Positions 6,931-33,048 of a stretch of DNA of 64,000 nt are shown here, piece after piece. Each line of letters begins with the position of its first letter. Within the stretch, counting starts at the first letter, position 1. The stretch covers positions 1-64,000 of the IMG/VR virus record IMGVR_UViG_3300025897_000012; one strand, 5' to 3'. The position numbers were made by a program, and so were the translations under genes. The DNA comes from a virus. Under the pieces are notes generated by a model. It was not told the DNA's origin. It saw only the letters and a program-made list of their open reading frames with translations, and searched no databases.

Positions 6931-6943
6931 GGCACTGAGATAA
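6931..6943 (+). repeat. 13-bp leader motif GGCACTGAGATAA, copy 2
   Basis: Identical to 5717-5729; overlaps the TAAGGA RBS. Confidence 0.85.
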
Positions 6944-6953
6944 GGAATACAAT

Positions 6954-14034: not shown

Positions 14035-14731
14035 AGGAGTCTATGTAAAGTCTAGTGGAACTACTGGAACTCCTAAGAATATATTTAGAACTCCAGAAAA
14101 TTTAAAACATTGTAATCGTATAGCAGTAGACTCACAAAAAATTACAAAAGATTCAAATATCTATACAGTATGTAAAATGGATCATGCCGGAGGTATGTTA
14201 GCACAAACTTTGCCTGCTGTAAGTGTTGGTGCGAATGTAACAGTAGAAGATTTTAATCCTAAAAGGTTTATGTCTGAAATACACAAATATACACATACAC
14301 ATTTAACTCCAAGACAAGCAATTATTATTAAAAATACAAAAGATTTTACAAAAATAGATTTAACAGGTATTTGGATTACATGCGGTAGCGATATTGTATC
14401 GTATGAATTAATAAAGTCGTACGTAAAACAAGGTGCAACATTTATGACAAATTGGGGTATGAGCGAAATAGGCCCTTGTGCAATCAATACAGTATTTAAT
14501 AATTTAGAATATGTAGAAAGACATCAAGAGTGGGCCCCTAAAGGATTGCCTATGTTAGGTGAAAATATATATTGTAATTATCAAATTGACTATTTAACAA
14601 ACGAGTTACTTGTTAAAGGTGATATGTGTATATACGATGATTGGTTTAATACTGGTGACTTAGTAGAATTAAAGTATAAAGTTCCTCCATTGGGATATTT
14701 TGCAGTACTATACTATGCTGGAAGATTATAA
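13985..14731 (+). CDS. truncated ANL-family adenylate-forming enzyme (AMP-binding)
   Basis: SSGTTGTPK (A3), NWGMSE (A5), ELLVKG (A6), WFNTGDL (A7), YAGR (A8 start). Lacks the C-terminal subdomain. Confidence 0.85.
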   Translation: MTKRKNILENLKTYLSKGVYVKSSGTTGTPKNIFRTPENLKHCNRIAVDSQKITKDSNIYTVCKMDHAGGMLAQTLPAVSVGANVTVEDFNPKRFMSEIHKYTHTHLTPRQAIIIKNTKDFTKIDLTGIWITCGSDIVSYELIKSYVKQGATFMTNWGMSEIGPCAINTVFNNLEYVERHQEWAPKGLPMLGENIYCNYQIDYLTNELLVKGDMCIYDDWFNTGDLVELKYKVPPLGYFAVLYYAGRL

Positions 14732-15460
14732 AATTCCTGTTAATACTTTTTGGACTGACTGAGTTAAAGCTAGACGATAATCGTTGCTTTCTGAATTATG
14801 GTAATGTGATAATACTTCTGTTAATTTATCATCTCTTTCACAAAATTCTTTATAATCAATTATTTCATTAGGTAGATCTAAAGCTGAAAACATTTCTTCA
14901 ATTGTATGCTTTTCTCTGTTTGGAAAAAACTTTGTTATACAAGAATTTTCTTCTGCTATCTGTTTACGCATACGGTCATCGTCTTTATACCAAAAGTAAT
15001 GAGGGTATGAAATGTCCCAGCCGCCACATACATGCCACCATTCAAAACAGCTTTCATTACTCCGCTGTACACCTATAAACTTAGCATCTGGAAACATTTC
15101 TCTAAGAAAAGGAAGATGATAAGCAAACCAATGACTCTTAATTATTTTTTTACCAGGCTCCCAATTTTTAAATGGTTTTTTAAATTCTTCTACAATTTCT
15201 TCTTTAGTCAATGTATCTATTACATCAAACTTGCCGCCAAATTCATGATCAGGCCCCCAATACGCTCCTCTGTGCCATCCTCGAGCTGCTAATTTTCCTG
15301 TATTAGGATTGACTGCTATATGGTCATATATCCTATCAGTAGTTTCGTCAGATATATTAATATTAATGTTAGATGTTATCATACGCAATGTTCCGCTCCA
15401 TCTACTTCCAGGAGGGCCTGTTGCTATAATTAAATCTTTACCAGTATACTCTTCATACAT
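14726..15460 (-). CDS. sulfotransferase-fold protein
   Basis: IATGPPGSRWS, IIKSH, FPDAKFIGVQR; paralog of 17223..17930. Confidence 0.6.
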   Translation of the reverse strand: MYEEYTGKDLIIATGPPGSRWSGTLRMITSNININISDETTDRIYDHIAVNPNTGKLAARGWHRGAYWGPDHEFGGKFDVIDTLTKEEIVEEFKKPFKNWEPGKKIIKSHWFAYHLPFLREMFPDAKFIGVQRSNESCFEWWHVCGGWDISYPHYFWYKDDDRMRKQIAEENSCITKFFPNREKHTIEEMFSALDLPNEIIDYKEFCERDDKLTEVLSHYHNSESNDYRLALTQSVQKVLTGIL

Positions 15461-16253
15461 TTTCTATTCCTTGTAATATCTTATCAGCCATTATTTTATG
15501 TGATTCTGGTCCTGGATGAAATCCGTCTCTTGCTAGGTCTACTACTGTTTCCTTTGCACCAAACGATATTTTTTTTATATTATCTAAATTTGGAACACTT
15601 GTTTTCCAAGCTCGCCTTTCACAATATGCTAGTATTAGTTTTGCGTTTGGAAACAGTCCTTTTAAAAAATAATCAAATAACTTTAAACAATCTATATCCG
15701 CTTGTTTAAAATATTTAACATAACCATCTTGTGCTTCTAATTTTCTCATTTTATATATTTCACGTAACCCCCACCCGTAACTTCCAAAAAATCGTGTGTC
15801 ATTTAAAATTATATAATCAGGTTTAAATTTTTTGTACTCAGTTAAAGGATCAACTAAATCAGTTAACGTATCTGCAGGGCTAATATTTAAATAAGAAGCA
15901 TTTAATTTTTTTGCTACAATATAAGGAAAACTATCCTCAACGTTAATACCTGTTCCTAACAACAAACTTCCGCCGGCGAATATTATTTTTGTACTAGCAG
16001 TATAGTCTATTTCTGGACCTCTTAATCCTAAGCTATTCCAAATATACTTTATATCACTCTTAGGTAATTCAGTTTGTACAATATGATGAGTAAAAGGATC
16101 TCTGCCATTACCACCAACTAAAGGCTTACTATTTTCTTTACTATCTTTACCGTGCCATAAATCTATTGTATTAGGAGTATTAAACAATTTTTTATGAAAT
16201 TTAGGTTTCTGCGTAGTAGTTGGATTTGTTAAAGGAGCAATAATCTCAGACAT
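15453..16253 (-). CDS. SGNH/GDSL hydrolase-like protein
   Basis: NSLGLRG, FAGGS(L) block I, ARDGFHPG (DxxH). Confidence 0.65.
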   Translation of the reverse strand: MSEIIAPLTNPTTTQKPKFHKKLFNTPNTIDLWHGKDSKENSKPLVGGNGRDPFTHHIVQTELPKSDIKYIWNSLGLRGPEIDYTASTKIIFAGGSLLLGTGINVEDSFPYIVAKKLNASYLNISPADTLTDLVDPLTEYKKFKPDYIILNDTRFFGSYGWGLREIYKMRKLEAQDGYVKYFKQADIDCLKLFDYFLKGLFPNAKLILAYCERRAWKTSVPNLDNIKKISFGAKETVVDLARDGFHPGPESHKIMADKILQGIENV

Positions 16254-17214
16254 TTATAATATGGTCCTTTGTACCATTGTTCATTAAATCTGTAAACTTG
16301 TCATTTATAAATCCTGTAGCTTGTAACGTAATACGTGGCGTATAACCCATATTAGATGCAGCATGAGGCATATTACACCAGTCATATACTACACATTCTC
16401 CTGCGTCATACCCTTGGTAATATGTATTTCCAAACTGCCATACATGACCGTAGTCCCACGGAGTTAAAGCTATTAGTATTCTACGTAACATTAAAGGATT
16501 CTTATCTGCGCCAGCATTGGTCCATCTTTCTCTCCATTCTGGCCTAGCATATCTCATCTGCTGATCAATATGAAAAGGTGTAACTTCTCCTAATCTTTGT
16601 ATATGAACTCTTGATTGATGTACATCATACATTCCAATTTCTTCAAGCATTCTAAAAAATACAGCAGTATCAGGATGTGTATCTCTCTTTTCAATATTAG
16701 CAATTTGATGGTGGTACATACAAGATACATCATCTTTTCCGGATGCACGTTGTATGTCCATTAGCTCACCATCATGTAAATCTTTATCTTGTTGACTTGA
16801 ATTGCGAGGTCTATAATTTCCTATTGTATGCTCTTTACATTTTCTAAGAGCTCGTTGCACTCCTGCCTCCCAGTCGCCTTTAAATTTACACATTACTGTA
16901 AAAGTCTTTTCTTGCGGGTCAGCTTTTGGGTCAAAATGCCAAGTTGATCTTAATTTATTATGATACCATCTACTAGGTATACCATCAACTGTATATACGT
17001 TCATATTTGATTTTTTATGACGTTCTAATTGTTCGTTTGAGTGAATTTCATCTTGATAATTGCTATCAGTAATGTTTACGCCTTCCTCCAATGGAGGAAC
17101 TGTATCTGGAATTAGATCTTTTACTAAGTCTCCTGAATAATAATTTACATTCTTATCATCGCCTTCAACAGATTTCTTAAGATTTTTATTTGCTTCGTTT
17201 GCGTAATTTTTCAT
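16246..17214 (-). CDS. 2OG-Fe(II) oxygenase, Asp/Asn beta-hydroxylase-like
   Basis: TPFHID...W.NMPHAASN...PRITLQ; paralog of 21336..22052. Confidence 0.7.
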   Translation of the reverse strand: MKNYANEANKNLKKSVEGDDKNVNYYSGDLVKDLIPDTVPPLEEGVNITDSNYQDEIHSNEQLERHKKSNMNVYTVDGIPSRWYHNKLRSTWHFDPKADPQEKTFTVMCKFKGDWEAGVQRALRKCKEHTIGNYRPRNSSQQDKDLHDGELMDIQRASGKDDVSCMYHHQIANIEKRDTHPDTAVFFRMLEEIGMYDVHQSRVHIQRLGEVTPFHIDQQMRYARPEWRERWTNAGADKNPLMLRRILIALTPWDYGHVWQFGNTYYQGYDAGECVVYDWCNMPHAASNMGYTPRITLQATGFINDKFTDLMNNGTKDHIINV

Positions 17215-17222: not shown

Positions 17223-17930
17223 CTAAAAGTTATATTCACAAATATTAATATCAAGTACGTATCTTCCGTTAAAATTATTAACCTCTTTTGGTTGACTCTT
17301 TTCTAAAGAAGAAATGTAGAAATCTAAAAAGTCGTATTCTTCTTTAGACTCTAGTCCCCAACGATCTTTAAAATAATGCCTATCACAGACACTTAGTTTT
17401 AATCTATTATCGCCTACAAAGTTATTTGCTGCTGCTACTTCTTCATGTATTTTTTCTTTAAGTAAATCGTAATTTTTATAATATGTATGGTAATCAGGGT
17501 AATCTATAGATTCAAAGCCGCCTGCACCTTTCCATCCTCTAAAATTTTTAACTTCTGTTCGTAACACTAAAAATATTTTTGCTAATGGAAAAGTTTCTCT
17601 AATATAATCGAGTTGCAAACTAAAATGATGACTTTTAACAATCCTATACTTATCCCAAGATTTATCAGTATAAGCAGCATCTATTTCTGAAATTATTTCT
17701 TCTTTAGACAACGTATCTAATTGATCAAACTTCTTACCATGCTCGTTACCTGGACCCCAGTACGCTCCTAAATGTTGTACAGGTGATCTTGTGTGTGTAT
17801 AAACTCTATCATCCCTATGATCAGATATGTTAATAGGCATTATTTCATTTTTTGAAATAACATTAGATACTGCACTCCATTTACTTCCTGGGGCGCCTGT
17901 AAAGAATATCAGTTTACTTTCGTCGTACAT
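17223..17930 (-). CDS. sulfotransferase-fold protein
   Basis: FFTGAPGSKWS, GAYWGP, IVKSH, FPLAKIFLVLR. Confidence 0.6.
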   Translation of the reverse strand: MYDESKLIFFTGAPGSKWSAVSNVISKNEIMPINISDHRDDRVYTHTRSPVQHLGAYWGPGNEHGKKFDQLDTLSKEEIISEIDAAYTDKSWDKYRIVKSHHFSLQLDYIRETFPLAKIFLVLRTEVKNFRGWKGAGGFESIDYPDYHTYYKNYDLLKEKIHEEVAAANNFVGDNRLKLSVCDRHYFKDRWGLESKEEYDFLDFYISSLEKSQPKEVNNFNGRYVLDINICEYNF

Positions 17931-17954: not shown

Positions 17955-18695
17955 TTATTCTGGCTTGTAAAACTCAAAATATAATCTGTCACCGTTGTCT
18001 TGCTTAAATTTTTCTAATTCAAGATTGTGTGTTTTTGCTTGTTCATACGCTACTTCAAATGTCCAAGGAAATATATCAACATAAGGACCTTTAGGCCACA
18101 AATGTCCTGGATTAGCTCTAAAATACATTCTGCCTCCTGGCATTAGTATTTCAACTAGTTTTGCAAACCTTTTATCAATGTCATTTCTATCGCCAAAGTT
18201 AAGGCTACCAAATACAATAATATGATCATAACTTTTAGGCTCTACAGCAAAATCTAATATATCAACCATGTAGTCTGCACTATTGTTAAAAGGGTCAATA
18301 CCAATAAGATTGTTTATTCTACTCTTAAAAGGATTATAACCGCATCCAAAGTCTAGTACTGCTTTCGGATTTGCATTGTTGATGGCGTCAACTAAAGCCC
18401 ATCCGCTGTATTGATATATCTCGGTTTTAGGTTGCCAAATCTCCCCAAAGAACCTATGCATATATTTTTTGTCAAGATCAGCTACAAGTTCTTTAACTGT
18501 CACATCAACGCTGTCTATGTCAAGTTGTAACTTAGATGTAATACTGTCTTTAAACTTGCGTAGTCTAGCTGGTGACCAAGGTAACGAACCTATGTGTGTA
18601 TTTTCTGTAATCTGTTCATTAATATTGTCATATTTAGGTAAATTGAAGGAGTTCTTTAAATTTTCGTCTATTAAACTAAAAATTCGAGTGTTCAT
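17955..18695 (-). CDS. class I SAM-dependent methyltransferase with ACP-like N-terminal domain
   Basis: VLDFGCG, IGID, YDHIIVFGSLNF, LMPGGRMYFR. Confidence 0.8.
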   Translation of the reverse strand: MNTRIFSLIDENLKNSFNLPKYDNINEQITENTHIGSLPWSPARLRKFKDSITSKLQLDIDSVDVTVKELVADLDKKYMHRFFGEIWQPKTEIYQYSGWALVDAINNANPKAVLDFGCGYNPFKSRINNLIGIDPFNNSADYMVDILDFAVEPKSYDHIIVFGSLNFGDRNDIDKRFAKLVEILMPGGRMYFRANPGHLWPKGPYVDIFPWTFEVAYEQAKTHNLELEKFKQDNGDRLYFEFYKPE

Positions 18696-18733: not shown

Positions 18734-18769
18734 GATAAAAAAAGACTCACTTTTAAAAATTTTTTTATC
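18734..18769. repeat. inverted repeat in the divergent intergenic region
   Basis: GATAAAAAAA (18734-18743) pairs with TTTTTTTATC (18760-18769). Confidence 0.6.
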
Positions 18770-18820
18770 CGTTTCATATAATTACTTATATAAGATGTAA
18801 ATTAAAAGGTTAAGGTCTGA

Positions 18821-20260
18821 ATGGAAGAAATTTTAGCATTACTAGCAGGAACACTATATGGACTAATTATAGGTATTATTCCTGGTGCAGGTGCAACTAC
18901 AGGCCTCATTTTTATATTTTCTTTTATTACATTATTTCCAGATCCGTACTTAGGAGTTATATTTTGCATGGCAGTAGTGGCAGCAAGCACAACAGGTGAT
19001 ACTTATACCGGAGTATTGTTAGGTATTCCTGGGGCAAATAGTGCCGCTGCAACTATGGTTGACGGCTTTCCGTTAGCACTACAAGGCAAGGCTACCTATG
19101 CAATATCTGCCGCGGTAACCACAAGTACAATAAACGGACTACTTTGGGGTGCTTTAGTATTCTTTTTACTTCCTTACTATACAAGCCTTATAATGGTATT
19201 TGGAGTGCCTGAACTATGGGCGTTCACTTGTTTAGCATTAGTAACCGTAACATTTATTACAAACAAGTGGTGGGTGAGAGGTGTTATAGCACTTGCTGTA
19301 GGAATTTTTATTGGTATGATCGGTGTTGATCCTAACACTAACGCAGATAGGTTTACTGGAGGGATTGAATACTTAGGTGCAGGAGTACAACTATTACCAT
19401 TAGTAGCAGGATTGTTTGCAATACCAGAACTTTTAGACGGATTAAAAAATAGAAAAAATACTGCTACTGTTTCTCTTTCTAATGGGGAACAAACAAAACA
19501 AGGATTTAAAGCAGTTTGGCAAAATAAATGGCTAGCCCTTAGAGGTGGTGCAATAGGAGCATTTATAGGAATTCTACCTGGCTTAGGTGGTGCAATGGCA
19601 GATTGGATGGCTTATGGGCAAGCTGTCGCAACAACTAAAAATCCAGATGTACCATTTGGAAAAGGAAACATTAGAGGTGTAATTGGACCAGAAGGTGCTA
19701 ACAATGCTCAAAAAGCTACAAGTATGATTCCTACTGTACTTTTTGGAATACCCGGAGCACCATTCGCAGCAATACTAATTGGATTATTCATGTATTTGGA
19801 TTTTGAATTAGGTACTGTAGACCTTGCTAATGACCCTAAGTTCTTTGACAGTATGTTGTACGGGTTTATGCTTGCAACTGTGCTTGTAGGCGCTCTATGC
19901 TTGCTTACGACACCTATTATAGCACGTATAGCACAAATACCCTACAAATATTACTTTCCGCTACTATTAGGTTTTATAACACTCGCATGTGTACAATACA
20001 CAGGTGGTTGGGAAGATTACGCTATTTTGGCAGTATGCTCAGTAATTGGAGTACTTGCCAAAAATTACAAATTTAGTAGACCAGCTCTACTATTTGGGTT
20101 CATTCTATCAGATAGAATTGAACAACTTACATTACAATTATCAAGTTTGTATAGTCTAGATAGACTTATTGATAGACCAATATTCATTGGACTTATCTTG
20201 CTAATTTGTGTTGTACTAATTTGGGGACTTACCCAAAGAAATAAACTAGAATATGCATAA
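18821..20260 (+). CDS. tctA: tripartite tricarboxylate transporter large permease TctA
   Basis: Many TM helices; GIIPGAG, LGIPGANSAAATMVDGFPLA, GILPGLGG, PEGANNA, LFGIPG signatures. Confidence 0.92.
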   Translation: MEEILALLAGTLYGLIIGIIPGAGATTGLIFIFSFITLFPDPYLGVIFCMAVVAASTTGDTYTGVLLGIPGANSAAATMVDGFPLALQGKATYAISAAVTTSTINGLLWGALVFFLLPYYTSLIMVFGVPELWAFTCLALVTVTFITNKWWVRGVIALAVGIFIGMIGVDPNTNADRFTGGIEYLGAGVQLLPLVAGLFAIPELLDGLKNRKNTATVSLSNGEQTKQGFKAVWQNKWLALRGGAIGAFIGILPGLGGAMADWMAYGQAVATTKNPDVPFGKGNIRGVIGPEGANNAQKATSMIPTVLFGIPGAPFAAILIGLFMYLDFELGTVDLANDPKFFDSMLYGFMLATVLVGALCLLTTPIIARIAQIPYKYYFPLLLGFITLACVQYTGGWEDYAILAVCSVIGVLAKNYKFSRPALLFGFILSDRIEQLTLQLSSLYSLDRLIDRPIFIGLILLICVVLIWGLTQRNKLEYA

Positions 20261-20278
20261 CAAAGGAGAAAAAATATT

Positions 20279-21325
20279 ATGAAAAAGTTTATTACATCAG
20301 TGCTTTTAGCACTTACTTTATCAACGCCGGCATTCGCTGATTACACGTTTGTGGTTCCTCAAAAGCCAGGAGCAGGTACATCACAATGGGCTGAGATTAT
20401 CGCTAAAGAACTAGAACCGTTCTTAGGTGAAAAAATTGTTATTAAATTTATTCCAGGAGCAAGAGATATTCCTGGGTTCAATAAATGGCATAACACAATG
20501 CGTGACAACGACAAGGCTGTAATGGTATCACACGGCGGAAATGGTGTAAGTTTTCTACAAGAAGAAGTAGACTATGACTACAGGCAATATGATAGTGTAG
20601 GATTAATGAATCTTAACATTATTGCTGGTAAAGCATCAGGTGCTGATATGAACAAGCCAAGTTTTGCAGCAGGTTCAGGTATGGTTCCTGAAGCATTTGC
20701 TTTTACAATGCTTATTTGTGGACCAGACAAAAGTATTGAAGAATATACAGCATGTTTTAAAGAAAATGTAACATGGGTTAAAGGTATGAGTGGTGCTGAA
20801 CGTAGACTAGCTTTTAAAAGAGGCGAGTTGACTGGTACTAGAGAAAATCCTGCGGCTTATAAAAAGCATGTTGCTCCTAATACAAAAGCAGAAATTTGGT
20901 TCCATCATGGTATTTTACAAGCAGATGGTTCGCATGCTGATGATCCAAACTATCCAGGATACCAGTTTGAAACTTTGTTTGAAAAGCGTTGGGGTGTAGC
21001 ACCAAGTGGTGATATGTACAAGGCTTATAAACTTGTAAAAAGTTTCCGTGATGGTATGCAAAAAGCTCTATGGGTTAACAAAGGTAATCCTAATAGACAA
21101 GCACTAGTAGATGCTTTAACTGCTATGAGTAAGGATAAGTCAGCAATGGCTAACATTCAGAAAAAAGTAGGTAAGTATGATTGGCTTATTGGAGAAGCTG
21201 GTAACAATCATAGAGACACACTTATGACTTTTGTTACTACAGATGCTTTAAGTTCTCTAGTTAAGTTCAATCGTAACGCACTAGGATTAAATAGTGTAGA
21301 GAAGATTGAATTAGCATTAAAGTAA
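20279..21325 (+). CDS. tctC: tripartite tricarboxylate transporter substrate-binding protein (TctC/Bug-like, divergent)
   Basis: Signal peptide ending AFA-D; FVVPQKPGAGT (cf. VPxxxGGxxD); KFIPGA; LAFKRGEL; adjacent to tctA. Confidence 0.8.
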   Translation: MKKFITSVLLALTLSTPAFADYTFVVPQKPGAGTSQWAEIIAKELEPFLGEKIVIKFIPGARDIPGFNKWHNTMRDNDKAVMVSHGGNGVSFLQEEVDYDYRQYDSVGLMNLNIIAGKASGADMNKPSFAAGSGMVPEAFAFTMLICGPDKSIEEYTACFKENVTWVKGMSGAERRLAFKRGELTGTRENPAAYKKHVAPNTKAEIWFHHGILQADGSHADDPNYPGYQFETLFEKRWGVAPSGDMYKAYKLVKSFRDGMQKALWVNKGNPNRQALVDALTAMSKDKSAMANIQKKVGKYDWLIGEAGNNHRDTLMTFVTTDALSSLVKFNRNALGLNSVEKIELALK

Positions 21326-21335
21326 GGAAGTATAT

Positions 21336-22052
21336 ATGGCGTTTAAATTCAACAGAAGTAAGATGAAATATTTGACCAACCCTGATGATTATAAAAGTAA
21401 TTGGGAGTGGACAAAGAGTAACAGTAACTATCATTTTGATAAAAACACAGTTGACGGCCTAGGTGAAACATTTCGTGTATGCGGAACATTTCATGGAGAC
21501 TGGGAAGCTGAGTTACAAGATGTTATAAAAGACAGCAAAGCTGTTACTTGGGCCACTAGGGGTAAGAAAGGTGAACGAAAAGACAAGTTTATCAAACAGG
21601 AAGAATATGATCTAACTTCTGTTGGCGCTAACGTTAACTTAGAAGTATCTAACTTTAATAGAAACTGTGAGAAATATACAAAAATAAATGAGATGGCAGA
21701 ATATTTCCATCTTGAAAATTTTCAAAAAAGAATACATGTGCAAACTACAGGACAGCTTTGGAATTTGCATATAGATAAATTATACCAATGGAATCCTGAG
21801 GACCCATCAAAAGTAATTAGAATTACAATTATGCTAAATGACTGGGAACCAGGACAATTTTACATGTACGGCAATCGTATATATGATAGATGGAAAACTG
21901 GAGAAATACATATTTTTGATTGGCCAAATACTCCACATTCAACAGCTAATACAAGCTACGTACCAAGAATAAGTTTACAGTTAACAGGTATTAGAACTGA
22001 AGATACTAATAAAATATTAAACGAACGAGATCATTACTATTCTGTGGAATAA
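21336..22052 (+). CDS. 2OG-Fe(II) oxygenase, Asp/Asn beta-hydroxylase-like
   Basis: WNLHID...FDWPNTPHSTAN...PRISLQ. Confidence 0.7.
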   Translation: MAFKFNRSKMKYLTNPDDYKSNWEWTKSNSNYHFDKNTVDGLGETFRVCGTFHGDWEAELQDVIKDSKAVTWATRGKKGERKDKFIKQEEYDLTSVGANVNLEVSNFNRNCEKYTKINEMAEYFHLENFQKRIHVQTTGQLWNLHIDKLYQWNPEDPSKVIRITIMLNDWEPGQFYMYGNRIYDRWKTGEIHIFDWPNTPHSTANTSYVPRISLQLTGIRTEDTNKILNERDHYYSVE

Positions 22053-22056
22053 ATGA

Positions 22057-22410
22057 ATGGTAGAATTATTAGTTGCTAACATAGTCTATGTATTATATAG
22101 ATTACTAGTAACTGCTCATATAGTTAAGTTTTTATACAAGTATATACCTTACGGGTTTGCTGTTTTAGTATCAGCACAGTTAAGTTTTTTATATGACGGT
22201 GGTGTTTTTGCCTACCTATTCCAAGCACAAGCATTACCGGAACTAGCAGAGTTTATACAAGCTAACGTATTATATACACTAAGAGTTGGTATAGCGTGGT
22301 GGATTATAAAGATACTATGGGACCGGCTAGATAATTACTACCTATCAGTGTTTATAGGTGCAGAGCTTACATTTGTAGTAGACTACTTTATTTTTGAGGG
22401 AGTGTACTAG
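22057..22410 (+). CDS. small integral membrane protein
   Basis: 117 aa, mostly hydrophobic, about 4 TM segments. Confidence 0.7.
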   Translation: MVELLVANIVYVLYRLLVTAHIVKFLYKYIPYGFAVLVSAQLSFLYDGGVFAYLFQAQALPELAEFIQANVLYTLRVGIAWWIIKILWDRLDNYYLSVFIGAELTFVVDYFIFEGVY

Positions 22411-22429: not shown

Positions 22430-23095
22430 ATGCTATTAATGAATCATGATACAATAAAAGAATTTGAAGATTTAAGTAAAGAATATTTTAATGTGCCCGG
22501 ACATAAAAAATTAAGACAAGGACAGAAAAACAGATTACCAAAATATTCCTTTGTAGTAGAGAAGTTTAACAAAGAAGATAACATAGTCGATGCAGGTTGC
22601 GGTGGCAGTTACTTTAAAGGTATTTTTCCAAATTTAATTGCATTTGATATAGTCGACTACAATAATCAAGATTACGTTTGTAATATATTAGATGCTCCTA
22701 TACCAGAAGATAGCCAAGATGGAGTTTTTTGTTTTGGTGTACTACATGAATGTCCAGATGAATATCATCTACCTAATATAGAAAAAATGTTAACGTGGTT
22801 AAAGCCCAACGGACAATTAGTAATGAGATGTAAAGCTAAACTAGTTACAAACAAACATCGTAAAGAACGACTATATGAACGTAAGTATAATGAATACTTT
22901 GATCAAGGATTATGGAGTAGAGAAAGAATTGATCAATTTACACAACAATTAAATTTAAAACTTAATTGGGTTATACATAGAGAAACTCTACGAAAAGATC
23001 AACGAACTAATGTTAAAGGGACTAACTTTGATTCATCTCATGACAATGATGTAGTTTTTAACGGACATATCTGGAGTTGGAGTAAAAATGTTTAA
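22430..23095 (+). CDS. class I SAM-dependent methyltransferase (tandem copy A)
   Basis: IVDAGCG, AFD, DGVFCFGVLH, WLKPNG; TAAATA at 22415-22420. Confidence 0.85.
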   Translation: MLLMNHDTIKEFEDLSKEYFNVPGHKKLRQGQKNRLPKYSFVVEKFNKEDNIVDAGCGGSYFKGIFPNLIAFDIVDYNNQDYVCNILDAPIPEDSQDGVFCFGVLHECPDEYHLPNIEKMLTWLKPNGQLVMRCKAKLVTNKHRKERLYERKYNEYFDQGLWSRERIDQFTQQLNLKLNWVIHRETLRKDQRTNVKGTNFDSSHDNDVVFNGHIWSWSKNV

Positions 23096-23413
23096 AGAAT
23101 TTGAAGAAATCTCAAGAATATACTTTAGTGCTAATGGCAGTAGGGAATTACGCAGAGGTTCTAAAATTCATAAAAATACTAGTAATGATTTTTTATATTC
23201 TTTACCTAAAAATGCAAATGTTGTTGATGCTGGATGCGGGCCAAATGCGTTTAGAACTATTTTTCCAAATTTAATTGCTTTTGATATAGTTGATTATGGT
23301 AATCAAGATTATGTTTGTAATATATTAGAAGCACCTATACCAGAAAGTAGCCAAGATGGCGTTTTTTGTTTTGGTGTACTACATGAATGTCCAGATGAAT
23401 ATCATCTACCTAA
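22724..23413 (+). repeat. 53-bp perfect direct repeat (22724-22776 and 23361-23413)
   Basis: GTTTTTTGTTTTGGTGTACTACATGAATGTCCAGATGAATATCATCTACCTAA in both methyltransferase genes. Confidence 0.9.
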
Positions 23414-23732
23414 CATAGAAAAAATGCTATCTTGGTTAAAACCAGGTGGTAAACTAATAATGCGTTGTAAATCAAAAGAAGTAGTAGATAAACACCCTCG
23501 TAACAGTAATGCCGTTGGAGAAATGCATGAATATTTTGATCAGGGATTGTGGCCAATAGAAAGAGTTAATCAATTCACGCAACAATTAAATTTAACGCTT
23601 GATTGGATTGAGCCTAAAATAATAACACGTAAACAACAGTGGAATTCTAATCCTAAAAAACGTTTTCATTCGTCTCATGACAATGATATAATCTTTGATG
23701 GACATATTTGGTGTTGGAGTAAAAATGTTTAG
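23088..23732 (+). CDS. class I SAM-dependent methyltransferase (tandem copy B)
   Basis: VVDAGCG, DGVFCFGVLH, WLKPGG; core nearly identical to copy A. Confidence 0.85.
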   Translation: MFKEFEEISRIYFSANGSRELRRGSKIHKNTSNDFLYSLPKNANVVDAGCGPNAFRTIFPNLIAFDIVDYGNQDYVCNILEAPIPESSQDGVFCFGVLHECPDEYHLPNIEKMLSWLKPGGKLIMRCKSKEVVDKHPRNSNAVGEMHEYFDQGLWPIERVNQFTQQLNLTLDWIEPKIITRKQQWNSNPKKRFHSSHDNDIIFDGHIWCWSKNV

Positions 23733-27022: not shown

Positions 27023-28182
27023 CCATATCTTATTTCATCAAACAAATTTAAAAACAAAGGCATGTGAGATCTTTCTAAAAATTTTGCTCTATTTATTTTA
27101 CCAAATTTTCTCATTGTCTTTAGAGCAGTTTTTGTCTCTAATGAGTTTTTATTATTTTCTATTCTATTTAATTCATGACAAATTAAATCAGCACGTATAT
27201 CAAAGTCTAAATATGTATCATATTTTTCATTTATAAGATCATAGAAAGTAAAATATCCTAACTTATTAATATACTTTATTGTTTGTTGACATCCTAGTGC
27301 AATAAACGGTTTACCCATTACTATTAATTGCCATATACTGAGATTTGTAAATAAGGCATTTACTTCACTCATATAAATTCGGTGGTTGTCGGGTGCCCAA
27401 GGAGTTAATATTGTAAAAAGGCTATTAGAATGATAGTCTAACTTATCATCTTTATCAATAATTGTACCACGAGTATGCAAGTTATTCGATTCTAAAGATT
27501 TACGCAAGGCTAAGCAATTATCAGCTTTTGGAAATTCAGAATATGTATGATATAGTAGCTTAGGATTAAAAGTTTCCATATCATAGTCTTTGACTGGCAT
27601 AATCTTATTAATAGGTTCAAAGAAATTTGTGTATTTTTCGGTATTATTATTAATAATTAACTTAGCTTCTATTTGCCACCAATCAATACTGTATGACTTA
27701 TATGGTTGTAATAATTCTCTATAACTATTATTAACATCTGATGTAACAATTAGTATATTTTCTATTGGTACTTGACATCTCATAAACATTTCTGCTACAT
27801 GCCTAGTACGAATTACTTCATTATACCCCTGTAATGTCTGTCCTAGTATTAAAACTTTCATTTTTCCATCTCGTAAATGGTCTAATGTTTTATTTGGTAT
27901 ATTAATGTTTATTCCATAAGACACTTCAAATGGATAAAATACATAATCTTCTACTGTACTAAAAGGATTACCTATTACATCTCCTGTATATAACGTCATT
28001 TCACAATTATTTTTTTTCATTGTATAATAGAAACTAGAAATAACTTCAGTCATTGCATCTTTACTATCTGGCCATTTGCCATAAGGATAGGGCCAAGTGT
28101 CTTTATTAAAATTGTAACTAGTAATTCCGTTCGGTACAGGGCCGTCGTCTGTTATAATATCATAATAAAAATTAATCGACAT
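27019..28182 (-). CDS. hypothetical protein, possible degenerate glycosyltransferase (GT-B-like C-terminus)
   Basis: KPFIALG...KLGYFTFYDLINEKYD tail; the family call is weak. Confidence 0.45.
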   Translation of the reverse strand: MSINFYYDIITDDGPVPNGITSYNFNKDTWPYPYGKWPDSKDAMTEVISSFYYTMKKNNCEMTLYTGDVIGNPFSTVEDYVFYPFEVSYGININIPNKTLDHLRDGKMKVLILGQTLQGYNEVIRTRHVAEMFMRCQVPIENILIVTSDVNNSYRELLQPYKSYSIDWWQIEAKLIINNNTEKYTNFFEPINKIMPVKDYDMETFNPKLLYHTYSEFPKADNCLALRKSLESNNLHTRGTIIDKDDKLDYHSNSLFTILTPWAPDNHRIYMSEVNALFTNLSIWQLIVMGKPFIALGCQQTIKYINKLGYFTFYDLINEKYDTYLDFDIRADLICHELNRIENNKNSLETKTALKTMRKFGKINRAKFLERSHMPLFLNLFDEIRYG

Positions 28183-29455
28183 ATTCTTTTAACCACTGTT
28201 TCCATATTTCAGTAAACTTAGGATGAATTTTTGTAACATCTTGATTTCTAATTCTATCATATGTTAGTGTTCTTTTTACAAGGTGATTTCTATAACCCTT
28301 GTGTCTTTCAATTGTTTCAAGATCATCATACGGAGTGGTTAATCTACTTAAAATATGGTTTAATCGACTTATTCTTATTTGTTTATCAGTTAATAAAGGC
28401 AATCGTTTTTTTAAATCTTCTGCAATTTCTATTCTATACTCATAAGGAATAATGTCTAAAATTAAATCAATTGGTCCATTTACAGGATTGAATACAAAAT
28501 TTCCTCTTTTACCATGATCAATCCAGTAATCAAGTAATTTAGGCAATTCCCATGCATTGTAAACTTGTGCAGTAGCTAGAAAATGTACATGTATTTTAGG
28601 CATTGACAAGTAATGTTTATATGCTTTATCTAGTTGTTCCCAGTTTGCTCCATATCTAATATAATCGTTAGTATAACCTATACCGTCCATACTAAAGTGT
28701 AATTCAACTTGCTTAAATTTAGACAACAATGGCGTAACTTTACTCTTTATTCTACTTCCGTTAGTAGTAATATCTAAAACTAAGTGTGTGTTTCCGCTTT
28801 CTACACACCATTTTAATAGAGTATATACTCCAGGCATGAACAATGGCTCTCCGCCTGCTATTTTAATTGTGTGGAGATGTGGTATTTGTTTTTTTATACT
28901 TTCAAAACAAACTGGATCTTCTATCCATTCGTCTACATCTGTCCATTCTTCAAACATAATATCTTGTGTTTCAGGATGTGCTAACTGTTCTTTAGCTATT
29001 GTACTACTAATTGCACCAAAACACATTCTACAGCCAAAGTTACATAACCTACCAGGACGTAGATCTGACCATACTGGATATCCTGTAGTGTTTCCTTTTT
29101 CAATATCTATGTGTATAGGATCTGTTTTTTGCCTATTACTACGTATAAAATTAGTATTTTGACTTTCTCTATCAGAACCTCCACCCTCTCTATCTTGCTT
29201 GTAACAAGTTCCGCATCTACTTTCAAATTTACCCTCTAACATATTTTTTCTAACTTCTTGCATATCTTTTCCAGTCCAGATATCTTGAAGATCTTTTCCT
29301 TTAACATCATCTACGATATTATTGTTATAATCTCCTAAACAACATAAGTTTACAAATCCATTTGTAGCTACATATTGATGAGTAAACGGCATAGCACAAA
29401 ATGCAGGATTATTAGCAATTTGAGACTCAAAGTTTAAATCATAATTTTTTTTCAT
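28172..29455 (-). CDS. radical SAM protein with N-terminal SPASM/twitch-like domain
   Basis: FCAMPF...GFVNLCC...CGTC, then CNFGCRMC, AGGEP, TTNG, FSMDG. Confidence 0.9.
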   Translation of the reverse strand: MKKNYDLNFESQIANNPAFCAMPFTHQYVATNGFVNLCCLGDYNNNIVDDVKGKDLQDIWTGKDMQEVRKNMLEGKFESRCGTCYKQDREGGGSDRESQNTNFIRSNRQKTDPIHIDIEKGNTTGYPVWSDLRPGRLCNFGCRMCFGAISSTIAKEQLAHPETQDIMFEEWTDVDEWIEDPVCFESIKKQIPHLHTIKIAGGEPLFMPGVYTLLKWCVESGNTHLVLDITTNGSRIKSKVTPLLSKFKQVELHFSMDGIGYTNDYIRYGANWEQLDKAYKHYLSMPKIHVHFLATAQVYNAWELPKLLDYWIDHGKRGNFVFNPVNGPIDLILDIIPYEYRIEIAEDLKKRLPLLTDKQIRISRLNHILSRLTTPYDDLETIERHKGYRNHLVKRTLTYDRIRNQDVTKIHPKFTEIWKQWLKEYVD

Positions 29456-31682
29456 TACATTCCTCTATCATCTGTGCTACATCCGGCAATGATGTTTTCC
29501 AAGACTCGTTTCTAATTTTATCTAAACTTTCCATCCAAGGCCATAAACGGTTATACTCATTAGCATCAGGTTCTTTGTCCCATAAGTGCATTAATATACT
29601 TTTGCATCTTTGCTCAACCTTACGACAAAATGCTTTTTCATCTACACTATTATTCCATTTATCATTTATACGTTTTATAAAATTTTTATATTTTTTATCT
29701 ATATATCGTTTGTATTCTATAGGCAAGTTTTGTATATTAAGTGTAGCAGGTCCGTATAGATTATGTACAATTATAACAGGTTCAATCCGATTCCAATTTT
29801 GCTCTTTCATCCACCATTGCATTTCTGGATAATGTAAAACGTTTTGTAGACTTAAAGTAAGTGTAACACTAGCAATTAATCTTTCAAATCCTTGTTCCTT
29901 ATCAATCCTACGCATATTCTTTAGGACAGTACTAAATTTTCCTGGGTGTCGGATGTATTCAAAATGAGAATTAATACCGTCTATACTCATTCCTAAATTT
30001 ACTTGTTTAAAAGATTTCCATTGATCAAATACTTTGCTAGGAACACCTGCCATATTAGTATTATAATCTAACGTAACATTATTTGCTGTTCCTCTTTTTA
30101 TATAACAATCTAACAGTTCTCTATGTTTTAAATTTATAGTTGGCTCTCCGCCTGTAAAATAATACCTTTTAATTGTATCTAAATTATTCATAATATGCGA
30201 CCATAACTTTGTAAAAGTTTGATCTGGTTCAAAAAGATCAGGAACAGTATTTGTACCATCAGGTAAAGTTTCAATCTTAACTGTGTTATGCCCTCTATAA
30301 TTAAAAACTCCTGAAGGCTGTAACTTTACCCAATCATCATACCATAAATTACTATCAGTTGGTCCACAGCTTCTACACTTTAAATTACATTTATTACCAA
30401 ATCTTAAATCCATATATGTTATAGGGAATTCTTCATCTTTTATGGTTCCGTCTTTTTTAGTAAGTGTAACTGCTTTGTGATATACATCTTCATATAATTT
30501 TCTGGTCCACTGGCGTTTACTTCCTATCCCGTTTTGTTCTTCATTCGTACACAGTTTACATACTTCTGGATCAATGCCATTCAGCATTTCTTGTCTTAGT
30601 TTCTTCCATACAGGTGCATTTCTATGCTGTGTAACGTCATCTTTTCCTGTAAGCACAGTACCATCTTCTTTGTATACTGTACCATAAGGATCATTAATCA
30701 TTTGACAACACATGCGAATACTTCCATCAGCGTTTGTTGCTAAGTGATTCCATGCAATAGGACAAAATGCCTTCCATCTATCTTTGTTTACTAACATATT
30801 CTCCTGTGTTTTTTCTATTTTTTCTACAGGTTTATCTAATCTTAGTTTTAACAATGTTCTTATTTTTCTTCCTCGAGGGGTATCTATACTAGGAAGATCT
30901 TTCTTTAGCCATAGTGCTTCAAGAACTTCTTGATCTTTGTCATACTCTGCAACAATCGCCATAACCTCAACCGGACAATCTGGGTGTAAAACCATTTCAA
31001 TTCTTTCTTGTGAAGTACGAACAATATCTAAATCAAAAGACATAGGTTTTTGAGGCCACGTAAAATCAAAAGAAAAATTATTATTTTGTTTTATCCATTT
31101 GTCCATAGTTTTCTGGAACTTCTTTCTATCCAAAGTTGGAAATATATGCAGTAGCTGATCTGTTAATTTTACAGCAGAAATATTTAACTCGTCTAAGTTT
31201 ATAATATATGACTTTTTAAAATAATCAGTGTAATGACTTGTATTATCATGATCTCTTTTCATATTGTCTGAATGTCTTATCATCCAATGTTCAGTAAGGT
31301 TTTCTTGCTCTTTTAATTTTTGATATCCTAATTGTGCCCAGTAATTGTAATTACGAGTAATAACAAAACAGATAACAGTCATACTACTATCCCAGTATTC
31401 TTTAATAATGTTAGGATTATAACTGTGATAATGATCCTTGTACAGATCATACTTGTTAGGATCGTTTTCACCTTCATATATATGTTCTTTTTCGACTAAA
31501 GAATATTTTATTTTACAAAATGACTTCCATCTATTTGTGCCTATAGGCTGTGCTTCTTTTCTAGGTATTTTGTTAATTTCAGGTACACATTCGCTTAACA
31601 AACTAGTAATCATTTCGCCACCAGTTCCAGCAGAATATAATAAAAGATAATTATGATTGTTGTTGGAAGAATTTAATTTCAT
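29439..31682 (-). CDS. multidomain radical SAM protein (sulfotransferase-like N-domain + twitch + rSAM)
   Basis: LLYSAGTGGEMI N-domain; FCPIAW...RMCC...CKLC; CNLKCRSC; FTGGEP; YNTN; MSIDG. Confidence 0.9.
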   Translation of the reverse strand: MKLNSSNNNHNYLLLYSAGTGGEMITSLLSECVPEINKIPRKEAQPIGTNRWKSFCKIKYSLVEKEHIYEGENDPNKYDLYKDHYHSYNPNIIKEYWDSSMTVICFVITRNYNYWAQLGYQKLKEQENLTEHWMIRHSDNMKRDHDNTSHYTDYFKKSYIINLDELNISAVKLTDQLLHIFPTLDRKKFQKTMDKWIKQNNNFSFDFTWPQKPMSFDLDIVRTSQERIEMVLHPDCPVEVMAIVAEYDKDQEVLEALWLKKDLPSIDTPRGRKIRTLLKLRLDKPVEKIEKTQENMLVNKDRWKAFCPIAWNHLATNADGSIRMCCQMINDPYGTVYKEDGTVLTGKDDVTQHRNAPVWKKLRQEMLNGIDPEVCKLCTNEEQNGIGSKRQWTRKLYEDVYHKAVTLTKKDGTIKDEEFPITYMDLRFGNKCNLKCRSCGPTDSNLWYDDWVKLQPSGVFNYRGHNTVKIETLPDGTNTVPDLFEPDQTFTKLWSHIMNNLDTIKRYYFTGGEPTINLKHRELLDCYIKRGTANNVTLDYNTNMAGVPSKVFDQWKSFKQVNLGMSIDGINSHFEYIRHPGKFSTVLKNMRRIDKEQGFERLIASVTLTLSLQNVLHYPEMQWWMKEQNWNRIEPVIIVHNLYGPATLNIQNLPIEYKRYIDKKYKNFIKRINDKWNNSVDEKAFCRKVEQRCKSILMHLWDKEPDANEYNRLWPWMESLDKIRNESWKTSLPDVAQMIEECNEKKL

Positions 31683-33048
31683 TATCGCTATATCCTACTA
31701 ATTCACTACTATTGTCTATTCCTCTAATAGGAACTAAACTGGTAGCGCCAATTTGTCTTCCGTTTGCACCGTTGTCAAAAATTCCAAGTTCTATAATTTT
31801 TTCATTAAATGATTGAGCTCTTTCTAACATACCCGGTGGTGTCATTAATTTAATCTCTAACCAAAAGTCATCATTTACACTTTTATGGTGATCAATTATA
31901 ATTTTACAATTTTCAATAAATCTTTGTTCGTTTCCTTTGTATAAATCCATACTACCAAAATGGGCACTCATATTTATACTGTTAATATACTGACATGCTT
32001 CTTTCCAATATTTTGTACTTCTACTTCCATTAGTAGTAACAAGTATCCATTGATCTCGTTCCTTTAAATGTTTTAGTATATCTAAAAACTTTGGATTCAT
32101 TGTTGGCTCTCCGCCCCCAAAGTTCCATCTTATACTAGCACCTTTACTCCATGTATCTATTGCTTTATCTATAGTTTCAATAATTTTATTATATGAGTGA
32201 TGTTCTTCTGTATTATTATGAACACTTGGCCAACAGTAGTCACAATCGTAATTACAACGTCTAGTAATGTCCCATAAAATTTGATACTCAATTGGAAAAT
32301 TCATTTCTATTCCAACAGGAATAGTATCAAATGCTATGTGTGGATTTTTTACTGCATCTTGTAATTGTCCTTTGTCTTGTCCATCATACCCATATTTTGT
32401 TACATTTAAATTTTCTAAAGCTAACTCGTCTTTAGCTTTACTTAAAATTACATCGGCTCCACAACCACAACTTGTTAACGGACATGTAGTCCATTTTTTA
32501 GGAGCTTCCCATCCTGTAAAAATACTACCTTGTAATCCCCATACTTTAGTATCTTTTTGTGCTTTCCACTGCCAAGTTGCTGGATCTTTCATAAACTGTT
32601 TGTAAGGATCGTCAAAAAATATTTTTTCTAACCTTCCAATTTCTGCCATTAATTTATGTTGCTGTTCACTGTTCTTGTAATCATGCTTGGGCATAGGCCA
32701 ACCGTTTTCAGTATTAGCATTTATCCAATCTTTACGTTTATCACTGCCGTCTGCTCCTATAATAGATTCTCTATATTCTTGCCATTGCCTATCTATTAAC
32801 TTTGGATCTTGATTCGTATAGGTTGTTACACGCTGATCATGAACTTTACCGTAATGAGATGCACTTGCACAATTTGCAATCCATACATTACCATCATAAT
32901 CTATGTATAAACTTCGCACTCCAGCACTACACTTCCAATCTTTCCATTTGTTTAAGTTATTTGCAATTACTTCATCAACACTAAAAAGACTATACTGATT
33001 ATTTTTGTTATAAATTCTAAGTTGTTTATTGTCTGTAGGTTGATCCAC
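31651..33048 (-). CDS. radical SAM protein with permuted (N-terminal) auxiliary Cys domain
   Basis: CNYDCDYC, GGGEPT and TTNGSR in the C-terminal half; WKCSAG...C...CPLTSCGC in the N-terminal half. Confidence 0.9.
   Translation of the reverse strand: MDQPTDNKQLRIYNKNNQYSLFSVDEVIANNLNKWKDWKCSAGVRSLYIDYDGNVWIANCASASHYGKVHDQRVTTYTNQDPKLIDRQWQEYRESIIGADGSDKRKDWINANTENGWPMPKHDYKNSEQQHKLMAEIGRLEKIFFDDPYKQFMKDPATWQWKAQKDTKVWGLQGSIFTGWEAPKKWTTCPLTSCGCGADVILSKAKDELALENLNVTKYGYDGQDKGQLQDAVKNPHIAFDTIPVGIEMNFPIEYQILWDITRRCNYDCDYCWPSVHNNTEEHHSYNKIIETIDKAIDTWSKGASIRWNFGGGEPTMNPKFLDILKHLKERDQWILVTTNGSRSTKYWKEACQYINSINMSAHFGSMDLYKGNEQRFIENCKIIIDHHKSVNDDFWLEIKLMTPPGMLERAQSFNEKIIELGIFDNGANGRQIGATSLVPIRGIDNSSELVGYSDNEIKFFQQQS

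What the first reader, a model, noticed from the sequence alone, without database searches (positions are those of the whole stretch)
18821..22410. Tripartite tricarboxylate transporter on a phage, without a canonical TctB
Seen: intact tctA and signal-peptide-bearing tctC, 18 nt apart, followed by a 2OG-type oxygenase and a 117-aa roughly 4-TM protein. Established: TTT systems are normally TctABC and import citrate and other carboxylates or sulfolactate. The binding protein here has VPQKPGAGTS rather than the usual VPxxxGGxxD, suggesting a different ligand. Inference: uptake of 2-oxoglutarate/citrate (co-substrate for the four oxygenases in this window) or of an iron-carboxylate for the five radical-SAM enzymes. 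22057..22410 might substitute for TctB.
Basis: partly seen in the sequence, partly recalled or inferred. Interest (0 to 1): 0.75.

Follow-up and report, generated by a model that had tools for sequence, protein, structure and literature searches.

The report
Two-part phage solute importer, no TctB
A giant marine phage carries its own nutrient-type uptake system, a membrane permease plus a very divergent periplasmic binding protein, that lacks the usual third subunit; the pair is common in ocean phages, its nearest cellular relatives have that third subunit fused to the permease, and its cargo is still unknown.

Summary
18821-20260 is an intact TctA permease (Pfam E 4e-97, both signature glycine motifs). 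Eighteen bases on, 20279-21325 encodes a signal-peptide protein that no Pfam model recognises. Its confident model (pLDDT 90.6) matches only TctC/Bug binding proteins at the top (Z 19-22, next class 13).

The pair lies on a jumbo myovirus fragment. It recurs in at least 56 other viral contigs of several lineages, under purifying selection, always near a methyltransferase, a TauD-like oxygenase or a sulfotransferase-fold gene.

New here: the closest cellular relatives (34-38% identity; Planktomarina, Marinomonas, Marinobacterium) are two-gene systems whose long TctA carries a C-terminal TctB domain. The viral TctA stops exactly where that domain begins. Their binding proteins keep the canonical loop ending in TD; the viral family has replaced it.

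The 117-aa protein is not a TctB substitute. It shows no profile similarity to TctB, occurs in 2 of 19 well-flanked loci, and has about 50 homologues against more than 1500. It is an internally duplicated four-helix membrane protein of unknown role.

The cargo (2-oxoglutarate, citrate, iron-carboxylate) is untested.

This scan found the same module before on other DNA, with the same general verdict.

The parts
18821..20260 (+). TctA-family permease, 479 aa. It ends just after the last core transmembrane helix and has no TctB domain.
   Evidence: PF01970 E 3.7e-97. Two signature glycine motifs. Aligns with long cellular TctA-TctB fusions up to the helix before their TctB domain. dN/dS 0.06-0.16.
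20279..21325 (+). Divergent TctC/Bug-fold periplasmic binding protein with a signal peptide, 348 aa.
   Evidence: No Pfam hit. Model pLDDT 90.6. Top fold matches are all TctC family. BLAST E 1e-10 to 1e-17 to the binding proteins next to cellular long TctAs. More than 1500 homologues.
21336..22052 (+). Probable 2-oxoglutarate/Fe(II) oxygenase, 238 aa, TauD/AtsK-like. A frequent neighbour of the pair.
   Evidence: Invariant H145-x-D147, H201 and R211. Profile hit to AtsK at E 0.027 over the distal His-Arg stretch. Present in 8 of 19 well-flanked loci.
22057..22410 (+). 117-aa membrane protein made of two roughly 58-aa repeats, with conserved R15/R76, Q41/E103 and D47/D109. An accessory gene of the island, not a TctB.
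   Evidence: repeat. (no TctB or GtrA similarity). (distribution). No fused longer forms found.
17955..18695 (-). Class I SAM methyltransferase-like gene, divergent from tctA here and co-directional upstream of tctA in most other loci.
   Evidence: Weak Methyltransf_25/23 hits. This family is in 15 of 19 well-flanked loci. Only generic methyltransferase matches in PDB.
18753..18782 (+). Promoter-like site in the 125-nt gap before tctA. A weak lead only.
   Evidence: 10 of 12 consensus matches, but such sites are not enriched in the region (30 found, 35 expected).
14726..15460 (-). Sulfotransferase-fold protein, 244 aa. Paralogue of 17223-17930.
   Evidence: Model pLDDT 75. VIA top 10 are all sulfotransferases: TPST Z 10-10.8, CurM ST 8.4, Stf9 and Stf1 about 8.3, above the kinases at 7.9 or less. 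This family is in 11 of 19 loci.
17223..17930 (-). Second sulfotransferase-fold paralogue, 235 aa.
   Evidence: 36% identical to 14726-15460, same invariant motifs.
16246..17214 (-). Second oxygenase-family paralogue, 322 aa.
   Evidence: Same invariant HxD...H...R as 21336-22052.
22430..23732 (+). Two overlapping methyltransferase genes (22430-23095 and 23088-23732) that continue the co-directional array.
   Evidence: Methyltransf_11 at E 4e-5 to 5e-5. They cluster with the tctA-adjacent methyltransferase family.

Best explanation
This is a virus-specific, two-component offshoot of the tripartite tricarboxylate transporter (TTT) family.

Proposed mechanism, all inferred:
- During infection the phage inserts its own TctA permease into the host inner membrane. 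By analogy with TctA, this would be a secondary, probably Na+-coupled, elevator-type carrier.
- The phage secretes its own TctC-fold binding protein into the periplasm.
- The binding protein captures one particular small anionic or zwitterionic organic compound and hands it to the permease.
- In the cytoplasm the compound is probably processed by the enzymes that travel with the pair: a SAM methyltransferase, a TauD-like 2-oxoglutarate oxygenase and a sulfotransferase-fold protein.

What is shown:
- The fold and family of both proteins.
- The absence of any TctB homologue near the pair.
- The conservation, linkage and purifying selection of the pair across phage lineages.
- Its sister relation to cellular TctA-TctB fusion systems.
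- A rebuilt ligand loop in the binding protein.

What is inferred: the direction of transport (import), function without TctB, and coupling to the neighbouring enzymes. The cargo is not known.
For: - TctA domain complete, with both signature motifs.
- Binding protein has the TctC fold, with a clear gap to other binding-protein classes, and a signal peptide.
- In 19 of 19 loci with enough flank, the binding-protein gene has tctA beside it. The two are 60 nt apart or less in 38 of 46 loci where both are seen.
- The pair lies in at least eight different gene neighbourhoods. One is the T4 core replication module, between regA and the gp43 polymerase. Another is this jumbo-phage backbone.
- dN/dS is 0.06-0.16 for TctA and 0.05-0.6 for the binding protein.
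- Viral TctAs form one clade (SH-aLRT 100), sister (92) to long cellular TctAs.
- In 1.84 billion representatives, short viral-type proteins reach 38-64% identity; the next best are long forms at 33-38%.
- Those long forms have a TctB domain (Pfam E 1.5e-4; hhalign 83%, E 9e-6). Their upstream binding proteins are homologous to the viral one.
- At least one of methyltransferase, oxygenase or sulfotransferase-fold gene is present in 19 of 19 well-flanked loci.
Against: - No transport or binding data exist.
[quoted passage not shown] A TctA without it may be inactive, or may need a host partner.
- All contigs are fragments (CheckV 4-56%), so a TctB-like gene could lie elsewhere in the genomes.
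- The conserved Asp of the first ligand loop is lost, so carboxylate binding cannot be assumed.
- Linkage to the tailoring enzymes is by neighbourhood only. They may serve another process, for example the glycosyltransferase and radical-SAM genes next door.
Confidence: 0.6

Rival explanations
1. The 117-aa four-helix protein (22057-22410) replaces TctB as the third subunit.
For: It has about the right size and helix count. It lies two genes downstream of tctA in one co-directional array. Wherever enough sequence is held, it is found in the same island as tctA.
Against: - No profile similarity to TctB (0.2%) or to the TctB domain of the nearest cellular fusions (0.0%), although that domain matches TctB at 83%.
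- Present in 2 of 19 well-flanked loci, and in 7 of 57 overall.
- 49 homologues against more than 1500.
- Distance to tctA varies from 0.7 to 11 kb, and its direct neighbours are often glycosyltransferase-like or NeuB-like genes.
Confidence: 0.06
2. The viral permease and binding protein work only together with a host-encoded TctB, or feed into a host TTT system. The phage supplies specificity and the host supplies the scaffold subunit.
For: Phage binding proteins that use host permeases are known (cyanophage PstS; my own knowledge). TctB is predicted to be a peripheral scaffold extension.
Against: - The hosts are unknown.
- In the nearest cellular relatives TctB is fused to TctA, so no free subunit would be on offer.
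- The phage brings its own permease, which would be unnecessary if it relied on host membrane parts.
- The viral clade is old and crosses several phage lineages with presumably different hosts.
Confidence: 0.1
3. The pair is not a nutrient importer. The binding-protein-like component senses or sequesters a periplasmic compound, or the permease exports or flips a product made by the island's tailoring enzymes.
For: - The ligand loop is rebuilt.
- The island is rich in modification enzymes and sits next to glycosyltransferase-like, radical-SAM and tail-fibre genes.
- The binding protein shows a higher dN/dS (0.26-0.6) than TctA in close pairs.
Against: Known binding-protein-dependent secondary carriers (TTT, TRAP) are importers (my own knowledge). 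In T4-like phages the pair sits in the replication module, away from structural genes. The tight tctA-tctC coupling is the normal importer layout.
Confidence: 0.12
4. This is a recently captured host operon fragment, or an assembly or binning artefact, that is decaying.
For: Four matching contigs are filed under bacterial MAGs.
Against: - Those four contigs are collinear with IMG/VR viral contigs and come from four unrelated taxa.
- The best cellular TctA is 38% identical.
- Both genes are intact and under purifying selection.
- Phage hallmark genes flank the pair.
Confidence: 0.02

Closest known systems
Two-gene TTT systems of marine Alpha- and Gammaproteobacteria with a long TctA-TctB fusion permease (source names: Planktomarina temperata, Marinomonas spp., Marinobacterium, Gynuella, Oceanospirillaceae)
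   Same: - Sister clade of the viral TctAs, at 34-38% identity.
- A divergent binding-protein gene next to the permease that also escapes or barely touches Pfam TctC and is homologous to the viral one (E down to 1.6e-17).
- No separate tctB gene.
   Different: - The cellular permease is 653-679 aa, with a C-terminal four-helix TctB domain. The viral one is 479 aa and stops before it.
- Gene order is binding protein then permease in cells. It is permease then binding protein in most phage loci.
- The cellular binding proteins keep the canonical loop (IPF-x-x-GGGTD) and the viral ones do not.
- The cellular loci are followed by PrpF-family isomerase genes, not by methyltransferase, oxygenase or sulfotransferase genes.
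Canonical tripartite tricarboxylate transporters (TC 2.A.80): Salmonella TctCBA, Bordetella BctCBA
   Same: TctA Pfam domain with both signature motifs. A periplasmic binding protein of the same fold. Presumably the same binding-protein-dependent, ion-coupled elevator mechanism.
   Different: No TctB. 26-32% identity to ordinary TctAs. The binding protein is invisible to PF03401. The first ligand loop lacks the conserved Asp.
Bug/TctC binding proteins with solved structures (Bug27 2qpq, TphC 7ndr, TBP 8hk9, BugD 2f5x, AdpC 5oei, BugE 2dvz, MatC 6hke)
   Same: Same two-lobe fold, Z 19-22, 264-273 residues aligned. The N-terminal strand-loop-helix aligns in register with BugD.
   Different: 10-16% identity and about 50 residues longer. 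It has an inserted Cys147...Cys159 segment and family-specific invariant motifs (HGGNG, MNLNI, RENPAA, WFHHG). The ligand is unknown.
Viral tctA noted as a putative auxiliary gene in SUP05 phage contigs (Roux et al. 2014, PMC4164917; listed again in PMC6359870)
   Same: A TctA domain on uncultured marine viral contigs, with its role stated as unknown.
   Different: Those papers report a domain hit only. I found no mention of the partner binding protein, the missing TctB, the cellular sister group or the linked enzymes.

Membership tests
Tripartite tricarboxylate transporter (TTT, TC 2.A.80) | TctA-type large permease (Pfam PF01970) with the duplicated G-x3-G-x3-G-x2-P-G-x-G motif | tested here: met
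   PF01970 at E 3.7e-97, full-length. Motifs at residues 10 and 242.
Tripartite tricarboxylate transporter (TTT, TC 2.A.80) | TctC/Bug-type periplasmic binding protein encoded with the permease | tested here: met
   Met by fold: Z 19-22 to 11 TctC-family entries, next class 13.2. Also met by homology to the binding proteins of cellular TTT loci. Not met at the level of the curated model PF03401: no hit at E 10.
Tripartite tricarboxylate transporter (TTT, TC 2.A.80) | TctB small four-helix membrane subunit, separate or fused | tested here: not met
   No PF07331 match in this record or in five other records. Nothing under E 0.1 with TctB or fused-domain profiles in six frames of 74 loci plus the window. 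The 117-aa protein is not TctB-like. All records are fragments, so absence from whole genomes is not shown.
Tripartite tricarboxylate transporter (TTT, TC 2.A.80) | Transports carboxylates (or sulfonates) into the cell | not testable with these tools
   Needs binding and uptake assays.
Bug/TctC binding-protein family | Conserved first ligand loop (P-F-x-A-G-G-x-T-D) that holds the ligand carboxylate through bridging waters. The role of this loop is from my own knowledge of the BugD work. | tested here: not met
   The viral family has P-Q-K-P-G-x-G-T-[ST] in the aligned position, with an invariant Lys and no Asp. The cellular sister binding proteins keep G-G-G-[TS]-D or a close variant.
TauD/TfdA-type 2-oxoglutarate/Fe(II) oxygenases (for 21336-22052) | HxD...H iron triad and a distal Arg for 2-oxoglutarate, in a double-stranded beta-helix | tested here: inconclusive
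   The motif residues are invariant, and there is a 46-residue sub-threshold match to AtsK at E 0.027. No Pfam hit. The fold was not modelled.
PAPS-type sulfotransferases (for 14726-15460 and 17223-17930) | Sulfotransferase fold with 5'-phosphosulfate and 3'-phosphate binding loops | tested here: inconclusive
   The fold is nearest to sulfotransferases (Z 8.2-10.8) but only about 2-3 Z units above P-loop kinases. Sulfotransfer_3 is below its cut-off. The loop reads G-x-P-G-S-[RK]-W-S, which is not the canonical one.
GtrA-like small flippase proteins (considered for the 117-aa protein) | Pfam PF04138 four-helix domain | tested here: not met
   No PF04138 match in the record at E 10. hhalign probability is 1.3% against an alignment of 10 GtrA domains.

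The most novel reading that the evidence does not exclude
Ocean phages have evolved a virus-only class of binding-protein-dependent secondary transporter. In this reading it works with no TctB-type scaffold at all, and its rebuilt pocket takes up something other than a plain carboxylate. Candidates are an organosulfonate, a sulfate ester or an onium-carboxylate osmolyte such as DMSP or a betaine. The compound would then be hydroxylated, sulfated and/or methylated by the linked enzymes, giving an import-and-tailor pathway that the phage carries into the host.
Probability: 0.25. Interest if true: 0.8.

Novelty: new variant of a known kind. Interest (0 to 1): 0.58.

Why it matters
- Phages are known to carry single binding proteins or channels. 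A complete, self-supplied permease plus binding protein is unusual.
- This pair is abundant: more than 1500 sequence clusters, in T4-like and jumbo marine phages. The compound it moves may therefore be a quantitatively relevant flux in infected marine bacteria.
- It is also a natural experiment on what TctB is for. The nearest cellular systems keep TctB fused to TctA, and the viral clade dispenses with it.
- The binding protein is small, soluble and models confidently, so a ligand screen is a direct way to name the cargo.

Tried and rejected
- Pfam, NCBIfam and PHROGs on the binding protein, the oxygenase and the 117-aa protein found nothing usable.
- DNA and protein searches of deposited phage genomes found no true relative. 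The seven weak TctA hits look like bacterial DNA in phage records.
- The first genome-contig scan, with the single protein, found nothing. The second, with the alignment, found four MAG contigs that proved to be viral-type.
- The 117-aa protein as GtrA-like flippase is rejected by Pfam and hhalign. As TctB it is rejected. No longer fused forms were found.
- The ESM Atlas gave only scores of 0.82, at chance level.
- Profile searches of PDB with the sulfotransferase-fold and methyltransferase families gave nothing specific.
- The promoter scan was not enriched over shuffles.
I could therefore not inspect the long metagenome contigs (up to 347 kb) that hold close homologues.
- Literature searches for the viral pair returned only the two papers that mention a tctA domain.
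- One unpublished genome (G044) was among those searched.
Full report
**What the window is.** The window belongs to an IMG/VR viral record of 79.7 kb, estimated to be 22% complete. GC content is about 32%. The same contig carries a baseplate wedge protein (phrog_10646, E 1e-182), tail and tail-fibre proteins, and a 5183-aa ORF. The wedge protein is 31-35% identical to those of jumbo myoviruses such as Atu_ph07, SCTP-2, GAP32 and K64-1. The finding therefore lies on a jumbo phage fragment, not on cellular DNA.

**The observation.**
- The four ORFs are as described.
- 18821-20260 is a full-length TctA: PF01970 at E 3.7e-97 over 1-422 of 423 profile positions.
- It has both copies of the family's G-x3-G-x3-G-x2-P-G-x-G motif. 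The motif definition comes from a 2026 preprint on BctCBA.
- Eighteen bases downstream, 20279-21325 encodes a 348-aa protein with a typical signal peptide.
- No Pfam model sees this protein, even at E 10. Sequence and profile searches of PDB give only sub-threshold hits to BugD and MatC.
- With an alignment of 17 homologues, AlphaFold gives a confident model (pLDDT 90.6, pTM 0.88).
- Foldseek's first 17 PDB matches are all TctC/Bug binding proteins, at E 3e-9 to 2e-7.
- VIA-align gives Z 19.1-21.7 over 264-273 residues for 11 such entries, then drops to 13.2 for other binding-protein classes.
- The protein is therefore a very divergent TctC-fold binding protein.

**The two downstream genes.**
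- The 238-aa protein has an invariant HxD...H...R pattern. It weakly matches the distal His-Arg stretch of AtsK, a TauD-family dioxygenase (E 0.027).
- The 117-aa protein consists of two homologous halves of about 58 aa (alignment score 66 against 26 +/- 5 for shuffles). Each half has two moderately hydrophobic helices and conserved Arg, Gln/Glu and Asp.

**How widespread the pair is.**
- The binding protein has more than 1500 homologous 90%-identity clusters in metagenomes, most at 50-98% identity. It also has 56 loci in IMG/VR.
- Clustering all ORFs of these loci shows tctA next to it whenever the flank is long enough (19 of 19). The two genes are 60 nt apart or less in 38 of the 46 loci where both are seen.
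- The surrounding genes differ: I count at least eight backbones.
- One backbone is this jumbo-phage lineage (L004/5, L030-35, L052).
- Another is a T4-like lineage. There the pair sits inside the core replication module: gp45 clamp, gp44, methyltransferase, gp62, RegA, TctA, binding protein, sulfotransferase-fold protein, Hsp20, IscU, gp43 polymerase.
- Three enzyme families recur beside the pair: a class I methyltransferase (15 of 19 loci), a sulfotransferase-fold protein (11 of 19) and the oxygenase (8 of 19). At least one of them is present in all 19.
- The sulfotransferase assignment rests on a model of moderate confidence (pLDDT 75). Its ten best structural matches are all sulfotransferases, Z 8.2-10.8, just above P-loop kinases.
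- Both transporter genes are under purifying selection. dN/dS is 0.06-0.16 for TctA. For the binding protein it is 0.05-0.2 in distant pairs and 0.26-0.6 in close pairs.

**Is it viral or cellular?**
- A pattern scan of one genome for each of 185,579 species found the binding protein in only four MAG contigs. They are filed under four unrelated taxa: Polynucleobacter, Weeksellaceae, Legionellales and Chitinophagales.
- All four are collinear with IMG/VR viral contigs, so they are most likely phage contigs binned with bacteria.
- No PHROG family covers any of the four genes, and no deposited phage genome holds a true relative.

**Nearest cellular relatives and the TctB question.**
- I searched 400 Pseudomonadota genomes with the viral TctA. 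Ordinary TctAs of about 500 aa score E 1e-57 or weaker (26-32% identity). A distinct set scores E 1e-76 to 1e-83 (34-38%) and lies in frames of about 660-700 aa.
- These long proteins (653-679 aa) align with the viral TctA from the start. They continue for 150-175 residues beyond its end.
- That extension has four or five hydrophobic helices. It matches Pfam TctB below threshold (E 1.5e-4 and 5e-3). It also matches an alignment of free-standing TctBs by hhalign (83%, E 9e-6, 112 columns).
- They are therefore TctA-TctB fusions.
- Each is preceded by a 360-395-aa binding protein that BLASTs to the viral one (E 1e-10 to 1.6e-17, 23-26% identity) and barely touches PF03401. Several are followed by a PrpF-family isomerase gene.
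- A search of 1.84 billion representatives gives the same picture across all taxa. Short viral-type proteins come first (38-64% identity), then a step down to mainly long forms at 33-38%.
- Named members of the long clusters come from Planktomarina temperata, Marinomonas, Marinobacterium, Gynuella and Oceanospirillaceae. The short clusters are unnamed metagenome sequences on contigs of up to about 217 kb.
- In a maximum-likelihood tree of 62 TctAs, the 37 viral rows form one clade (SH-aLRT 100) on a long stem. The 11 fusions form another (100), and the two are sisters (92). This was a quick search with one model, and the tool warns that long branches meet at this join.
- The tree cannot say whether the viral lineage lost the TctB domain or the cellular lineage gained it after the split.
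- No TctB homologue was found in the viral DNA held: PF07331 in six records, and two TctB profiles against all six-frame ORFs of 40 aa or more in 74 loci plus the window (best E 0.11).

**The 117-aa protein.**
- It is not related to TctB (hhalign 0.2%), to the fused TctB domain (0.0%) or to GtrA (1.3%). Pfam TctB and GtrA models find nothing in the record.
- It has 49 homologues and no longer fused forms.
- It occurs in 7 of 57 loci that hold the binding protein, and in 2 of 19 well-flanked ones.
- In 14 further viral loci found with it as query, its neighbours vary: the oxygenase, methyltransferases, or glycosyltransferase-like and NeuB-like genes. tctA lies 0.7 to 11 kb away, or off the fragment.
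- It is thus an occasional member of the same island, not a fixed partner of the permease.
- Its conserved buried charges and duplicated architecture suggest a small carrier or channel of its own. I could not support that further.

**The ligand site.**
- The first strand-loop-helix aligns in register with BugD.
- The cellular sister binding proteins keep the canonical loop (I-P-F-G/S-x-G-G-[TS]-D). The viral family has V-P-Q-K-P-G-x-G-T-[ST], with an invariant Lys and no Asp.
- The viral family also has its own invariant motifs rich in His, Asp, Trp and Arg, and an inserted segment with two invariant Cys.
It does not say what the ligand is.
- Linkage to a TauD/AtsK-like oxygenase and a sulfotransferase-fold protein makes an organosulfur or onium-carboxylate compound worth testing first. 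This is a guess.

**Comparison with the literature and with this scan.**
- A viral tctA domain was noted, with unknown role, in SUP05 phage contigs (PMC4164917) and relisted in a review (PMC6359870).
- I found no paper on the partner protein, the missing TctB or the cellular sister group.
- Earlier notes of this scan describe the same module on other DNA, with the same general verdict.
- One of them pointed to two-gene systems with a long TctA. I tested that lead here and it holds.

**Verdict.** This is a real, conserved, virus-borne two-part derivative of the TTT family. The TctB-substitute idea is not supported, and the cargo remains open.

Noticed in passing
window 45796-61347 (-): A single 5183-aa ORF between the tail-fibre-like genes and the baseplate wedge gene. 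Not examined.
   Followed up: no
window 28172-34017 (-): Four consecutive radical-SAM proteins, one with a SPASM domain placed ahead of the radical-SAM core, directly behind glycosyltransferase-like genes.
   Followed up: partly
L058, L059, L060, L061 (genome contigs): Contigs filed under MAGs of Polynucleobacter, Weeksellaceae, Legionellales and Chitinophagales are collinear with IMG/VR phage contigs. They are probably mis-binned viral DNA.
   Followed up: yes
L024:9686-10542 and the same position in about 10 other T4-like loci: Hsp20 and a full IscU/NifU_N iron-sulfur scaffold gene (E 2e-48) sit right after the transporter cassette, between regA and the gp43 polymerase. A GH5 cellulase-family gene lies at L024:1424-2530.
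   Followed up: partly
L061-L065: A second, more divergent viral subfamily of the pair (43-51% identity) has the gene order reversed, binding protein then permease. It also lacks TctB.
   Followed up: partly
L095:3486-4427, L097:3461-4420: PrpF-family isomerase genes (E 1e-85 or better) directly follow the cellular TctA-TctB fusion genes. This hints that those cellular systems handle aconitate-like tricarboxylates.
   Followed up: no
window 5747-8252 (+): An AAA ATPase gene, followed by a gene for a DUF2201 metallopeptidase-plus-VWA protein, is conserved (72-85% identity) in the related jumbo-phage contigs L030-L035.
   Followed up: no
L067 and L074 (one IMG/VR record of 31.8 kb): The record is classed as having inverted terminal repeats and holds the 117-aa locus twice in opposite orientation. 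This is possibly an assembly fold-back.
   Followed up: no
window TctA and binding protein against L002, L007 and L030: The identity rankings of the two genes disagree. TctA is nearest L007 and L030 (79-82%) and 66% to L002. The binding protein is nearest L002 (76%) and 68% to L030. This suggests recombination between the two genes among phages.
   Followed up: no
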